DNA of 64,000 nucleotides from Escherichia coli O157:H7. Its GTDB lineage: Bacteria > Pseudomonadota > Gammaproteobacteria > Enterobacterales > Enterobacteriaceae. Below, in pieces: positions 46,201 to 49,200 of the stretch (position 1 is the first letter of the stretch; each line of letters begins with the position of its first letter). The stretch lies in the NCBI RefSeq assembly GCF_013167455.1, contig NZ_CP038328.1. One strand, given 5' to 3'. Made by a program: the position numbers.

Positions 46201-49200
46201 GTGACTGCAGTGGCTTCCCCGCCGGCATGTACCCTCAGTTCACCGTTCTGATTTATGGTGGTGTTACCGGCAGCGCCACCTGCCTTAACAACCTGCCAGC
46301 CCCCCTCGTTAATTACCGTGTTCAGCGCAAGTCCGTCCCTGTGCACATATTGGTAACCGCCATTCAGTGTGGTATTCAGGGCCCTTCCGTGTACCGACTG
46401 GTCACCACCTGCGTAAATGAGAGTGTCACGGGCTAGCCCGGAAAATAAGATAATCTGCCGTCCATTTTTGTTGATGGTGGTGGATTCTGCTGTTCCCTGG
46501 ACCTTCTGACCCGTATACGAGTTGTCAGAATCAGGGCCGCCTTCTGCGCCGGTGTTGATGATGGTTCCTGTTGCCAGCCCGCCACTTTTAACGCTCTGGT
46601 AACCGTCGCGGTTGATAATTGTACCGGTGGCAACCCCGCCCTCATGCACCCACTGCTCGCCTCTGTTATTCAGTGTGGTGTTCACCGCCAGTCCGTTCAG
46701 GCTCTGTCCCCCGCCGTCACGAATAACCGTATCACTGGCTGTTCCCCCCTCCAGCACGACCTGACGACCATTTGTGGTGACAGTGGTGTTTCCGGCTATC
46801 CCGCCATTCTGTATCCATTGCCCACCGGTGTTTTCTTCACTGTCCGGCCCCAGTTCCAGCCCGGTACTGATGGTCATTCCGTTGGCCGTACCGAAGACAA
46901 TCTGGTTGTCATGATTTGTCAGTGTTCCATCGTTCACGGTTTCTCCCGCCTGTACAACCTTGTCAGCAGCCAGTGCCGGGACTGATGTGACAGCAGCAAG
47001 AGACAGCGCAACCGCCACACCGGCGCGTTTTCCCCGTGAGCGGGCCAGTTCGGAGGCCACCACCAGGGTGCCCGTAATGTGATTCCATACCAGCCTGTAG
47101 CTGGTGTTCAGATGTCGTTTCATCAGCTTTTCCTTACAGAGGGTGAATAAAAAAGCCGGTACCCACAAAAGTGGATACCGGCAGGTACAAAACAGAGTTA
47201 TCGGGCACAGCGATACGTCCCGGGCGTAAACGCTCTCCCCCTTCATCAGACAGAGAAGTATCAGTCTGTTGTGTGCAATTCCGTTCTGCATGATGAAGAG
47301 ATTCAGCTGCCTTTTCGCAGGCCATTAACCACTATAAACGATCGATATAAACGATCGATACCTGTTTTATCGATCGTTTTATTCTATTAACAGTAGAGCA
47401 GTCACGCAAGAGAAACAGGAGGGGCATGAGGTGTTTGTATCATGTTTTCAGTTGGTTAACGCAATGTAATCAGACATTTCCCCTGGCAGACTGTTCAGAA
47501 GAAAATCCAGTTCCATACCGCGCGGGCAACAGAGACCACCGTGTCACGGACGGCACGCAGAACTGTGCGTGCAACAGAGGCAACACAGACGCTCTCCACC
47601 GTGTCAAATATCCGGTCCACCGCACCGGTAAACTGTTCACGGGCCTGCCCCCAGACAGATTCCGTGCACAGCTCGTCCTGCAGGCGGGTCATCAGGGGAC
47701 TGGCGGCATGGTCGGGAAGCGCTGTCATGAGCGCACTGACCAGCGTATCCAGTTCCCAGCCGGTGCGGGCCGATACGGCAACAACCGGATGTACGGGCCG
47801 GAACAGCCGGAATACCGCATCTGTTTTTTCGCGAATGTTCTGTTCCTGTGCGGGAGAAGGCTGAATACCTGCCATATCCCATTCATGGCAGGGCTCTGTT
47901 TTGTCGGCCTGCGTCACCACAAACAGCACCTGCTGATGTCCCCGGTGCAGTATGTGTCGCCAGAAATACTCATCCACAGACAGGGCACGGTCATCGGCTT
48001 TAATCAGCCACAGTACCAAGTCCAGTTCAGGCAGAATGTCACGGTACAGGGCTTCATACTCTGCATCCCTGTCCCGGCTCTCGCCCACCCCGGGCAGGTC
48101 AGTGATAACCATGCTGTGACCATGGCCACTCAGACGGAAGCGCCGCACTTCCCGGGTGCCGGCGTGAACATCACTGACCGGGGTGACCTCCCCCTGAAAC
48201 AGTGCATTACAGAGTGAGGATTTACCGGCCCCGCTTTTACCCATAATGCCAATCACGGGTTCGTGACTGGTGAGTTTGCGCAGATGTTCCAGGATGTGAC
48301 GGGAAAGCGAGTAAGGCAGGGAGGAGAGCGGTTTTTCAATTGCCTCAATGGCATCAGACGGATTCATACATGTATTCCCGGTGAAAAAAGACAAAACCCC
48401 GCGCACCGGAAAGGTGGCGGGGGATTCACAACGATAATATCTGTCTGAAATTATTTAGGATGCAGGTATCTTCTGATAATCATACATCCCGAATTTTGTT
48501 CTTAATAGTTGAGTAGTGGTATTTGGTTTCCCTGAGAGAATATAAAGGTGAATCATGCTGCATTGAGTTTGATTCAATTTGTACTGAGACAAGTATCTTC
48601 ATGATTATAATCAAAAGTTGGGTGGATTGGTCTGGCGCTCATCATTTTTTCGAATAAACTCACTAATTATTGCCCCCCCCAAAGGAGATGATTTCATGTA
48701 TAATTGTGGTGAATCATATTCAGAATACGACATATCATTATCTGACGATGAAAACTATGACGATGACTATTATCGTGAACGCCCGTGTCCGGGAGAAGTT
48801 TTCGGCTATGATAATACTGAGGATAATGATGAGGCGGCATCTGATTATGCATTAAAAATAAATGAAAACTCTGATTAATACGGGGATAGCTGATAATAAG
48901 ACAATCAATGACAGATATTAATGAATAAACATAATCAGGCGCTCAATACTTGGTTTAATCTGGGCGCCTGATTAAAATCTGAGGAAACATATAATAATTT
49001 TCATCAAAATAGTATTTATGTACTAACTAAGCTGGATTTGAACCTCTATTTCTGGGTATTTGTTATCACTTAATCCATTACTGCTCCTCCTTCAGCATAT
49101 GTCGTATCCGTTGAAGGATTTACGCATATCGGTAACGTCGGCAACGAGCCAGATGCGGGTACCTGACGGGAGTGAGATCATCGTCCCCTCCCGGTCAGTT

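What the first reader, a model, noticed from the sequence alone, without database searches (positions are those of the whole stretch)
47124..47494. Ag43 regulatory region with the canonical three-GATC OxyR/Dam phase switch
Upstream of this island flu allele (949 aa, shorter than the K-12 protein as I recall it) the sequence ACGATCGATATAAACGATCGATACCTGTTTTATCGATCG carries three GATC sites at 47340, 47353 and 47372, the arrangement that underlies Dam/OxyR epigenetic ON/OFF switching of Ag43. The switch therefore appears intact in this island-borne copy, which is probably one of several flu alleles in the genome.
Basis: partly seen in the sequence, partly recalled or inferred. Interest (0 to 1): 0.35.

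Follow-up and report, generated by a model that had tools for sequence, protein, structure and literature searches.

The report
Ag43-type phase switch upstream of cah
This is the well-known regulatory region of the E. coli O157:H7 adhesin gene cah (an Antigen 43 homologue): a promoter overlapped by an OxyR operator with three Dam methylation sites, followed by a 250-nt leader with a built-in terminator, so it is ordinary rather than new.

Summary
GATC sites lie at 47340, 47353 and 47372, in the 371-bp gap between a YeeP-like GTPase gene and the 949-aa gene cah (Ag43/Cah family, minus strand). The setting is a serX-inserted island of an O157:H7-like chromosome.

On alignment, the three GATCs have exactly the K-12 agn43 spacing (19 and 13 bp) and the same position relative to the -10 hexamer. 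They are kept in 118 of 125 related leaders from E. coli genomes and gut metagenomes.

Two 15-nt OxyR half-sites are identical to K-12. They lie 32 bp centre to centre and score 8/10 each, the only 16/20 match in the 64-kb window.

A 7-nt cassette between GATC-I and GATC-II differs from K-12 (AAACAGG versus TCTATTT). It removes the compact-register CTAT element but lies in the spacer of the extended register. This class is the commoner one in nature.

It matches Rfam IS102/IsrC and carries a strong intrinsic terminator 26-60 nt upstream of the ATG, a second known control layer.

The guess of several flu alleles is not borne out for typical O157:H7 genomes, which show one copy.

Verdict: a known system that looks intact by sequence; its function was not tested. 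Low interest.

The parts
47404..47409 (-). -35 hexamer TTGCGT (K-12 has TTGTCC at the aligned position), 17-bp spacer to the -10
   Evidence: Alignment to K-12 agn43 upstream region. The hexamer is nearly invariant in 67 unique class A sequences while the spacer varies. The generic promoter scan did not flag it, because it matches only 8/12.
47381..47386 (-). -10 hexamer TAGAAT
   Evidence: Identical in the window, K-12, both CFT073 alleles and nearly all metagenome copies.
47341..47387 (.). OxyR operator in the extended register. Half-site 1 is ATAGAATAAAACGAT (47387..47373), which overlaps the -10 and GATC-I. A 17-nt spacer follows. Half-site 2 is ATCGTTTATATCGAT (47355..47341), which spans GATC-II to GATC-III.
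   Evidence: Each half-site matches ATAGnTnnnAnCTAT at 8/10, giving 16/20 in total. This is the only 16/20 match in the 64-kb window on either strand. The register and score are the same in K-12, the class A majority sequence and CFT073 agn43a/b. A 32-bp centre-to-centre spacing is described as canonical for reduced OxyR in PMC4856963.
47372..47375 (.). GATC-I (promoter-proximal, at or next to the transcription start)
   Evidence: The K-12 isrC annotation starts at the G of the aligned GATC.
47353..47356 (.). GATC-II, 19 bp from GATC-I
47340..47343 (.). GATC-III, 13 bp from GATC-II
47361..47367 (-). 7-nt class-specific cassette AAACAGG (TCTATTT in K-12-type switches). It forms the loop of a 12-bp inverted repeat whose arms carry GATC-I and GATC-II.
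   Evidence: Alignments, allele table, inverted repeat.
47347..47351 (-). 5-nt core TTTAT between GATC-II and GATC-III. It is hypervariable among alleles (TTACT, TTGCT, CTGAT, TCACC and others). The window shares TTTAT with K-12.
47142..47377 (-). cah leader RNA, corresponding to the IS102/IsrC RNA family. The 5' UTR is about 252 nt from the inferred start near 47375 to the ATG.
   Evidence: Rfam RF00124, 77 bits against a gathering score of 46, E = 1.1e-11, full model. In K-12 isrC is annotated at the aligned position immediately upstream of flu. The RNA fold has a z-score of -4.2.
47149..47182 (-). Intrinsic terminator in the leader: a 12-bp stem with 8 G-C pairs and a 4-nt loop (47182..47155), followed by TTTTTT (47154..47149). 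It ends 26 nt upstream of the ATG.
   Evidence: Terminator scan. Invariant in the window, K-12 and five other E. coli alleles. Present in the MFE and centroid folds of three leader classes. [quoted passage not shown]
47121..47135 (-). Shine-Dalgarno AAGGA (47135..47131) and the cah start codon ATG (47123..47121)
   Evidence: Sequence. Identical to K-12.
44274..47123 (-). cah, a 949-aa Ag43/Cah-family autotransporter adhesin and the gene under control
   Evidence: NF033177 auto_Ag43 equivalog, 1984 bits, positions 1-949. 68% identity to K-12 Ag43. The cah region is identical to the annotated cah WP_000820483.1 of O157:H7 Z852.
47495..48367 (-). Upstream YeeP-like GTPase family gene. Its stop codon bounds the regulatory interval.
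   Evidence: RefSeq annotation of the Z852 sequence, which has no mismatch to the window in this interval. Weak Era/MnmE-type GTPase matches. The same gene order is seen in 5 other E. coli genomes and in both CFT073 loci.

Best explanation
The interval 47124-47494 is the complete regulatory region of cah, the O157:H7 allele of the Antigen 43 (agn43/flu) family. It is read on the minus strand.

A sigma-70 promoter (-35 TTGCGT, 17 bp, -10 TAGAAT) starts transcription at or next to GATC-I. A 47-bp OxyR operator made of two 15-nt half-sites overlaps the -10 hexamer, the start site and all three GATC sites.

By homology with K-12 agn43, the switch works as follows. When the three GATCs are unmethylated, OxyR binds, blocks transcription and shields the sites from Dam. 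This is the heritable OFF state. When Dam methylates them first after replication, OxyR cannot bind and cah is transcribed. This is the heritable ON state.

Transcripts then have to pass a strong intrinsic terminator in the roughly 252-nt leader. The terminated product corresponds to the IsrC/IS102 RNA. Expression therefore also depends on read-through at that site.

Shown here: the sequence elements, their homology, their conservation and the operator score. Inferred: OxyR binding, the methylation states and the switching itself.
For: - GATC positions and the quoted sequence are confirmed.
- Base-for-base alignment with K-12 agn43 shows the same 19/13-bp spacing, an identical -10 and identical half-sites.
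- The extended OxyR register scores 16/20 in the window, K-12, the class A majority sequence and CFT073 agn43a/b. It is the only such match in the 64-kb window.
- A 32-bp half-site spacing is called canonical for reduced OxyR, and the OxyR oxidation state is reported to be irrelevant for agn43 (PMC4856963).
- All three GATCs are retained in 118 of 125 leaders that were sampled by an anchor outside the switch.
- Across 67 unique class A sequences, variation concentrates in the promoter spacer and in the 5-nt centre of half-site 2. The hexamers, the GATCs and the half-site edges stay fixed.
- The downstream gene is a full-length Ag43/Cah equivalog.
- The leader matches Rfam IS102 at 77 bits against a gathering score of 46 and carries a canonical terminator.
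- The mechanism is established for K-12 agn43 (PMC3764049, PMC2909390, PMC4872104).
- Three adjacent unmethylated GATCs are seen in vivo upstream of both CFT073 Ag43 genes (PMC4752239).
Against: - No experiment on this allele or on its switch class (AAACAGG cassette) was found in the held library. The CFT073 in-vivo data concern K-12-like switches.
- In the compact OxyR register (N7 spacer) the window matches only 10/20, against 14/20 in K-12, because the CTAT element is lost. If that register is the one used, affinity could be lower.
- The generic promoter scan found no sigma-70 site, since the match is 8/12. The promoter is therefore assigned by homology only.
- Dam and oxyR are not in the window.
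- Metagenome copies are not phylogenetically independent, so conservation counts overstate the number of independent observations.
Confidence: 0.85

Rival explanations
1. The switch is homologous but functionally shifted. The class A cassette (AAACAGG in place of TCTATTT) removes the compact-register CTAT contact, so OxyR can bind only in the extended (reduced-form) mode or with lower affinity. That would give different ON/OFF bias, different switching rates or a different response to oxidative stress from K-12. In the extreme it would give a mostly ON, weakly repressed cah.
For: All 7 cassette positions differ between the classes while the flanking arms are identical. The compact register scores 10/20 against 14/20. 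The 5-nt centre of half-site 2 is hypervariable among alleles, which fits tunable affinity. Published work on opvAB shows that the quality of the half-site match sets the ON/OFF bias (PMC4856963).
Against: The extended register is intact (16/20) in every allele examined. Class A is the majority form and keeps all three GATCs, which only makes sense if protection from Dam still matters. OxyR oxidation state is reported to be irrelevant for agn43 phase variation.
Confidence: 0.1
2. The interval mainly encodes a free-standing prophage small RNA (IsrC/IS102) with its own function. On this view the GATC cluster belongs to that RNA gene's promoter and 5' hairpin rather than to a cah switch.
For: There is a full-length Rfam IS102 hit. 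isrC is annotated as an ncRNA in K-12. A strong terminator lies before the ATG. The GATC palindromes can form 5' RNA hairpins.
Against: The RNA and cah are on the same strand and contiguous, with no separate promoter-like site between the terminator and the ATG. The literature treats IsrC as the terminated agn43 leader (PMC5389530). In 124 of 125 copies the leader is directly followed by the Ag43-type start MKRHLN. This reading does not exclude the switch. It only re-labels the terminated product.
Confidence: 0.04
3. The three GATCs are a chance by-product of a short AT-rich palindromic or direct repeat (AAACGATCGATA twice) and have no regulatory role.
For: At whole-window GATC density such a triple is not rare (41% of random placements), and another triple exists at 21807-21828. 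The sites sit in 13-bp direct and 12-bp inverted repeats.
Against: The positions are homologous to the experimentally defined K-12 sites. They are retained in 118/125 diverged copies while neighbouring bases vary. In the local GATC-poor context only 0.4% of random placements give such a triple. This is the best OxyR match in the window.
Confidence: 0.01

Closest known systems
E. coli K-12 agn43 (flu) regulatory region: the Dam/OxyR phase-variation switch plus the IsrC leader
   Same: - Same gene family downstream, at 68% protein identity.
- Same upstream YeeP-type gene.
- Identical -10 hexamer.
- Identical GATC spacing of 19 and 13 bp.
- Identical half-sites ATAGAATAAAACGAT and ATCGTTTATATCGAT.
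- Identical terminator hairpin, Shine-Dalgarno and first codons.
   Different: - The 7-nt cassette between GATC-I and GATC-II is entirely different (AAACAGG versus TCTATTT).
- The sequence downstream of GATC-III and a roughly 60-nt patch before the terminator differ.
- The leader is 252 nt here and 222 nt in K-12.
- The -35 is TTGCGT here and TTGTCC in K-12.
- The protein is 949 aa here and 1039 aa in K-12.
UPEC CFT073 agn43a (c3655) and agn43b (c1273) regulatory regions
   Same: GTPase-agn43 gene order on tRNA-associated islands, with agn43b also at serX. Three GATCs at 19/13 bp and a 16/20 extended OxyR register. Three adjacent unmethylated GATCs are reported in vivo upstream of both copies.
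   Different: The CFT073 switches keep the K-12-like CTAT cassette. Their leaders and terminators are more diverged, and agn43b has a fourth GATC in the leader.
Salmonella gtr and opvAB Dam/OxyR phase-variation loci
   Same: OxyR half-sites carry GATCs at their edges. The pair of GATCs is 13 bp apart within a half-site, as for GATC-II/III here. Half-site spacing is typical of reduced OxyR, and methylation blocks OxyR binding (PMC2909390; PMC4856963).
   Different: Those loci have three or four half-sites that offer alternative OxyR positions, and OxyR can also activate. Here there is a single pair of half-sites over the promoter, so OxyR acts only as a repressor (one search found no third half-site in register).
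Rfam RF00124 IS102 / IsrC RNA
   Same: Full-length match of 47377..47142 above the gathering score, including the 5' GATC hairpin and the terminator.
   Different: The match has two large insertions relative to the family consensus (41 versus 35 nt and 62 versus 35 nt), reflecting the longer class A leader.

Membership tests
Ag43 (agn43/flu) Dam-OxyR phase-variation switch | Three GATC sites clustered at the promoter/start site with the family's 19-bp and 13-bp spacing | tested here: met
   GATC at 47372, 47353 and 47340. They align with K-12 GATC-I/II/III. The same pattern is found in 118/125 related leaders.
Ag43 (agn43/flu) Dam-OxyR phase-variation switch | An OxyR binding-site match that overlaps all three GATCs and the promoter | tested here: met
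   Extended register, 8/10 + 8/10, at 47341-47387. It is identical to K-12 and unique in the window.
Ag43 (agn43/flu) Dam-OxyR phase-variation switch | Match to the compact OxyR consensus (half-sites separated by 7 nt), as can be drawn for K-12 | tested here: not met
   10/20 in the window against 14/20 in K-12 and CFT073. The CTAT element is replaced by the AAACAGG cassette. I treat this as a K-12-class property, not as a family-defining one.
Ag43 (agn43/flu) Dam-OxyR phase-variation switch | Controls an Ag43-family self-associating autotransporter gene immediately downstream | tested here: met
   NF033177 auto_Ag43 equivalog, 1984 bits against a cut-off of 1200, full length.
Ag43 (agn43/flu) Dam-OxyR phase-variation switch | OxyR binds unmethylated but not Dam-methylated operator DNA | not testable with these tools
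   Requires EMSA or footprinting. Known for K-12 only.
Ag43 (agn43/flu) Dam-OxyR phase-variation switch | Heritable, reversible ON/OFF expression that is locked OFF in dam mutants and locked ON in oxyR mutants | not testable with these tools
   Requires genetics or single-molecule methylation data. No such data for cah were found in the held literature.
IS102/IsrC RNA (Rfam RF00124), i.e. the agn43 leader | Covariance-model score above Rfam's gathering threshold over the whole model | tested here: met
   77 bits against 46, model positions 1-206/206, E = 1.1e-11.
Intrinsic (rho-independent) terminator within a 5' leader | G+C-rich hairpin followed by a U tract, located between the start site and the start codon | tested here: met
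   12-bp stem with 8 G-C pairs and a 4-nt loop, followed by T6, at 47182..47149. It is retained in all folds. Termination activity itself was not tested.

The most novel reading that the evidence does not exclude
Natural Ag43-family switches fall into at least two operator classes that differ by a swapped 7-nt cassette. The class found here, which is the majority one, has lost the compact-register contact and keeps only the extended (reduced-OxyR) register. Together with the hypervariable 5-nt centre of half-site 2, this could be a built-in tuning knob that sets allele-specific ON/OFF bias or sensitivity to oxidative stress.

In addition, almost every leader examined keeps some ATG-initiated reading frame that runs through the leader terminator, in different frames in different classes. 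Ribosome transit of that frame could be the still-unidentified antitermination mechanism of agn43.
Probability: 0.12. Interest if true: 0.45.

Novelty: already known. Interest (0 to 1): 0.13.

Why it matters
Cah/Ag43 drives autoaggregation and biofilm formation. An intact epigenetic ON/OFF switch means that O157:H7 populations are expected to be mixtures of cah-ON and cah-OFF cells, which affects how adhesion, biofilm and expression experiments should be read.

None of this is new. The gene, the island, the switch architecture and the leader terminator are all described for the family.

Two minor points go beyond the annotation. First, the biochemically studied K-12 operator appears to be the minority type among the copies sampled here. 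Second, the divergent cassette lies in the spacer of the reduced-OxyR register. This explains how the switch can be 'intact' despite 7 of 7 changes at its centre.

Tried and rejected
- **Genome-collection scans.** Two scans of genome contigs, one with a 22-nt operator pattern and one with a 31-nt invariant terminator pattern, returned nothing. No species-level distribution was obtained. The operator pattern failed because most alleles carry a different 5-nt core. The second failure is unexplained.
- **Primary papers.** The papers on agn43 (Wallecha 2002, PMC135096; Wallecha 2014, PMC4135670) and on cah (Carter 2018) are not held. Their content is cited only from memory or through citing papers.
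- **Literature on cah regulation.** Searches for cah with OxyR, GATC or phase variation gave no paper that tests the cah switch.
- **In-vivo methylation evidence.** CFT073 has three unmethylated GATCs upstream of Ag43, but both of its switches proved to be K-12-like. A Nanopore 6mA preprint turned out to concern K-12 only.
- **Generic promoter scan.** It found no sigma-70 site in 46900-47700. I rejected this as evidence of absence, because the homologous K-12 promoter has the same weak -35.
- **GATC-free zone as a switch-specific feature.** I rejected this in its strong form. GATC depletion extends over most of the island (13 observed versus 59 expected in 47.5-64 kb).
- **Leader reading frames as a conserved peptide.** I rejected this. 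The N-terminal parts differ between classes, the frame changes with indels, and no Shine-Dalgarno precedes the ATGs.
- **Viral-contig scan.** It found one hit, in which the switch is joined to lambdoid late genes. This is an isolated rearrangement or a chimera.
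Full report
**1. Observation**

The + strand at 47338-47376 reads ACGATCGATATAAACGATCGATACCTGTTTTATCGATCG, exactly as quoted. GATC occurs at 47340, 47353 and 47372. The coordinates 47124-47494 are precisely the intergenic gap between two minus-strand genes. One boundary is the start codon of a 949-aa ORF (ATG at 47123..47121, ORF 47123..44274). The other is the stop codon of the upstream ORF at 47495.

Clustering alone is weak evidence. With 171 GATCs in 64 kb, 41% of random placements contain three sites within 32 bp, and the window holds a tighter triple at 21807/21816/21825. 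The cluster lies, however, in a GATC-poor stretch. There is no other GATC for 3.5 kb on one side and 1.8 kb on the other, and only 13 others occur in 43.8-64 kb. In that context only 0.4% of random placements give such a triple. The real evidence is homology, described in section 4.

**2. Where we are**

The window differs at 6 positions over its first 58 kb from E. coli O157:H7 strain Z852. Positions 1-34.4 kb are core chromosome (flg, mdo, csg, ghrA). A tRNA-Ser (serX) lies at about 34.5 kb, and from there to 64 kb runs an island. The island carries cbtA/yeeU-type toxin-antitoxin genes, an antirestriction gene, a dynamin-family/RdcB/patatin module, cah, a YeeP-like GTPase gene, IS fragments and further genes.

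The 949-aa product is a full-length match to the NCBIfam equivalog 'Ag43/Cah family autotransporter adhesin' (1984 bits, cut-off 1200). It is 68% identical to K-12 Ag43 (1039 aa), and the length difference comes from gaps in the passenger domain. Cah of EDL933 (z1211) is a characterised Ag43 variant of class C2 (PMC8993888; PMC4542319).

**3. Anatomy (minus strand, gene orientation)**

| Element | Sequence or description | Coordinates |
|---|---|---|
| -35 hexamer | TTGCGT | 47409..47404 |
| Spacer | 17 bp | |
| -10 hexamer | TAGAAT | 47386..47381 |
| GATC-I | preceded by AAAAC | 47375..47372 |
| Arm | GATA | |
| Cassette | AAACAGG | 47367..47361 |
| Arm | TATC | |
| GATC-II | | 47356..47353 |
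| Between GATC-II and GATC-III | G-TTTAT-ATC | core TTTAT at 47351..47347 |
| GATC-III | | 47343..47340 |
| Leader | about 252 nt in total | |
| Terminator hairpin | 12-bp stem, 8 G-C pairs, 4-nt loop | 47182..47155 |
| U tract | T6 | 47154..47149 |
| Shine-Dalgarno | AAGGA | 47135..47131 |
| Start codon | ATG | 47123..47121 |

These elements rest. The start site is inferred. In K-12 the isrC annotation begins at the G of the aligned GATC-I, and the Rfam model begins 2 nt upstream of it.

**4. Related sequences**

Megablast of the 371-bp interval finds it in 4017 of 5426 complete E. coli genomes. The best match is at least 99% identical in 437 records.

Aligned to K-12, the -10 hexamer, the three GATCs, their 19-bp and 13-bp spacing, the segment from GATC-II to GATC-III, the terminator, the Shine-Dalgarno and the first codons are all identical. 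The 7 nt at the centre between GATC-I and GATC-II are completely different: AAACAGG here and TCTATTT in K-12.

To sample alleles without bias towards the switch, I anchored on the invariant terminator sequence in metagenome contigs, which gave 120 hits. Of 125 leaders, counting also the window and the fetched E. coli loci, 118 keep all three GATCs at 19/13 bp and 7 have lost one.

Two operator classes appear.
- **Class A** carries the AAACAGG cassette and GTTTATAGTGGTTAATGG after GATC-III. It makes up roughly 85% of the sample and includes E. coli B and the window.
- **Class B** carries the TCTATTT cassette and GATAAGCTAATAATAACC after GATC-III. It includes K-12.
- Occasional recombinants exist (L057, L114).

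Both CFT073 alleles are class-B-like but more diverged. The window is class A, but it carries the K-12-like core TTTAT between GATC-II and GATC-III, where other class A alleles have TTACT, TTGCT, CTGAT, TCACC and others.

Across 67 unique class A sequences, variation concentrates upstream of the -35, in the promoter spacer and in that 5-nt core. The hexamers, the GATCs, their immediate flanks and the cassette are nearly fixed. These copies are not phylogenetically independent, so the counts describe sequences rather than events.

**5. Is the OxyR site intact?**

I scanned with the classical consensus ATAGnTnnnAnCTAT for each half-site.

- In the compact arrangement (half-sites 7 nt apart), K-12 and CFT073 score 14/20 in the register that covers the three GATCs. 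The window scores 10/20, because the cassette replaces the CTAT element.
- In the extended arrangement (17-nt gap, 32 bp centre to centre), every allele scores 16/20 with the same two half-sites. This holds for the window, the class A majority sequence, K-12 and both CFT073 genes. The half-sites are ATAGAATAAAACGAT (47387..47373, covering the -10 hexamer and GATC-I) and ATCGTTTATATCGAT (47355..47341, from GATC-II to GATC-III). This is the only 16/20 match in the whole window on either strand.

A 32-bp spacing of half-site centres is described as canonical for the reduced form of OxyR. The same paper states that agn43 phase variation is independent of OxyR oxidation state (PMC4856963). The gtr locus has the same 13-bp GATC pair inside a half-site (PMC2909390).

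In this register the class-specific cassette falls in the uncontacted spacer. The hypervariable 5-nt core falls mostly on unspecified centre positions of half-site 2 (four of its five positions are 'n' in the consensus). That matches the observed pattern of conservation. I therefore conclude that the operator is intact by sequence. The register actually used by OxyR on this class is inferred, not shown.

**6. The second layer**

Rfam IS102 (IsrC) matches 47377..47142 over the full model (77 bits, gathering score 46). In K-12, isrC is annotated immediately upstream of flu. The hairpin with its T6 tract is a textbook intrinsic terminator inside the 5' UTR. It is invariant between the window, K-12 and five other alleles and appears in all predicted folds.

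[quoted passage not shown] From memory, Wallecha et al. 2014 showed that the terminator works in vitro and left the antitermination mechanism open. I could not read that paper.

**7. Mechanism**

Established for K-12 agn43:
- OxyR bound to the unmethylated operator represses transcription and keeps Dam out (OFF).
- Methylation of the GATCs prevents OxyR binding (ON).
- Both states are inherited and switch at about 10^-3 per generation.
- dam mutants are locked OFF, and oxyR mutants or Dam overproduction lock the gene ON.

In vivo, three adjacent unmethylated GATCs are seen upstream of both Ag43 genes of CFT073 (PMC4752239).

For cah, everything that can be read from the sequence agrees with this mechanism. 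Binding, methylation states and switching are inferred by homology.

**8. Rivals**

- **Functionally shifted switch** (weaker or extended-only OxyR binding). This is the only serious alternative. It rests on the cassette difference and is not excluded (about 0.1).
- **Independent sRNA gene.** This is largely a re-labelling of the terminated leader.
- **Chance.** This is excluded by homology and conservation.

**9. Copy number**

The regulatory region and the cah beta-domain each give one place in most O157:H7 genomes listed. They give 3-4 places in most of the other STEC genomes listed, among them O26 and O103 strains. Across E. coli the median per genome is 1 place for the regulatory region and 2 for the beta-domain, with a range of 1-7 for both. 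For the lineage the window matches, 'one of several alleles' is therefore not supported. From memory, EDL933-type strains with the duplicated island would have two.

**10. Verdict**

This is a correct identification of a well-known system in a well-known gene. It counts as already known and is of low interest.

The small additions are the two operator classes, the register argument that reconciles the divergent cassette with an intact operator, and the side observations listed separately: family-wide absence of GATC from Ag43 ORFs, reading frames crossing the leader terminator, and one contig in which the switch is joined to lambdoid late genes.

Noticed in passing
window 44274-47123 (cah ORF); also 47495-64000 and 34600-39400; L002 2040-5159; L130, L131; metagenome loci L010-L129: GATC is specifically missing from Ag43-family ORFs. 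Observed versus expected (maximal-order Markov) is 0/7.6 in cah, 0/8.2 in K-12 flu and 0/8.4 and 2/10.6 in the CFT073 alleles. Other 4-nt palindromes are near expectation. 96 of 102 complete ORFs in metagenome contigs have none and 6 have one.

The depletion is not confined to the gene. The island part 47.5-64 kb has 13 GATCs against 59 expected, and 34.6-39.4 kb has 7 against 25. The dynamin/RdcB/patatin module at 39.4-44.3 kb is normal (20 against 25). This looks like GATC avoidance across the mobile element, and it leaves the three switch sites isolated. Whether that isolation helps the switch (less local Dam or SeqA traffic) is unknown.
   Followed up: partly
window 47134-47325 and 47124-47291 (minus strand); leaders of L002, L130, L131 and the metagenome loci: 116 of 117 leaders contain an ATG-initiated reading frame that runs through the leader terminator hairpin.
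- Class A majority: a 52-aa uORF ending at a TAA that overlaps the Shine-Dalgarno.
- K-12 and CFT073 agn43b: an in-frame N-terminal extension of the main ORF.
- The window has both: an ATG at 47291 in frame with cah (a 1005-aa ORF) and a 63-aa uORF at 47325..47134.

The frames and N-terminal peptides differ between classes, and no Shine-Dalgarno precedes the ATGs. It is not a conserved peptide. Translation across the terminator could still be relevant to the unexplained antitermination.
   Followed up: partly
window 47347-47351 and 47361-47367; loci L005-L129: The switch comes in two classes that differ by a complete 7-nt cassette swap (AAACAGG versus TCTATTT), flanked by identical palindromic arms. 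The 5 nt between GATC-II and GATC-III are hypervariable, with at least 14 variants. Recombinants between promoter class and switch class occur (L057, L114). Seven natural copies have lost one GATC.
   Followed up: partly
window 47121-47375 minus strand (RNA fold); L007 317-574: In class A leaders the segment just after GATC-III (UUUAUAGUGGUUAAUGG) is predicted to pair with the region around the Shine-Dalgarno (UUCACCCUCUGUAAGG). The K-12 leader has different sequences at both places, including a 2-nt insertion before the SD, and shows no such pairing. This may be a class-specific long-range structure that sequesters the SD. Covariation was not tested.
   Followed up: no
L132 (IMGVR_UViG_2534681766_000003) 720-2065: A class A switch and the first ~175 nt of the leader are joined to lambdoid late-region genes instead of an Ag43 gene: DUF968/HNH-like, antiterminator Q and, further on, large terminase. 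The DUF968 ORF starts at a leader ATG. This is either a prophage insertion or rearrangement in the leader, or an assembly chimera.
   Followed up: partly
window 21807-21828: A second tight GATC triple with 9-bp spacing (GATCGTAACGATCATCGAGATC) lies inside the mdoG coding region, on the opposite strand to the gene. It was not examined further.
   Followed up: no
window ~34481-34568 and the island from 34.6 kb; L130 46063-46150: The island sits at tRNA-Ser serX next to ghrA. This is the same chromosomal site that holds the CFT073 island carrying agn43b. Both islands have the same module order near the tRNA: DUF4942, DUF957, DUF5983, CbtA/YeeU, DUF987, JAB, antirestriction, DUF932.
   Followed up: no
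window 58066 onward; window 16642-17868: Relative to O157:H7 Z852 the window has only 6 substitutions up to 58066 and then falls out of register, which indicates an indel in the IS-rich part of the island. In Z852, mdtG at the position corresponding to 16642-17868 is annotated as a pseudogene with an internal stop.
   Followed up: no
Genome-contig collection: Neither a 22-nt operator pattern nor a 31-nt terminator pattern gave any hit among the 100,044 species-representative genomes. The terminator pattern is invariant in all seven aligned E. coli alleles and occurs in more than 120 metagenome contigs. Either the E. coli representative lacks these exact strings or the scan missed them.
   Followed up: no
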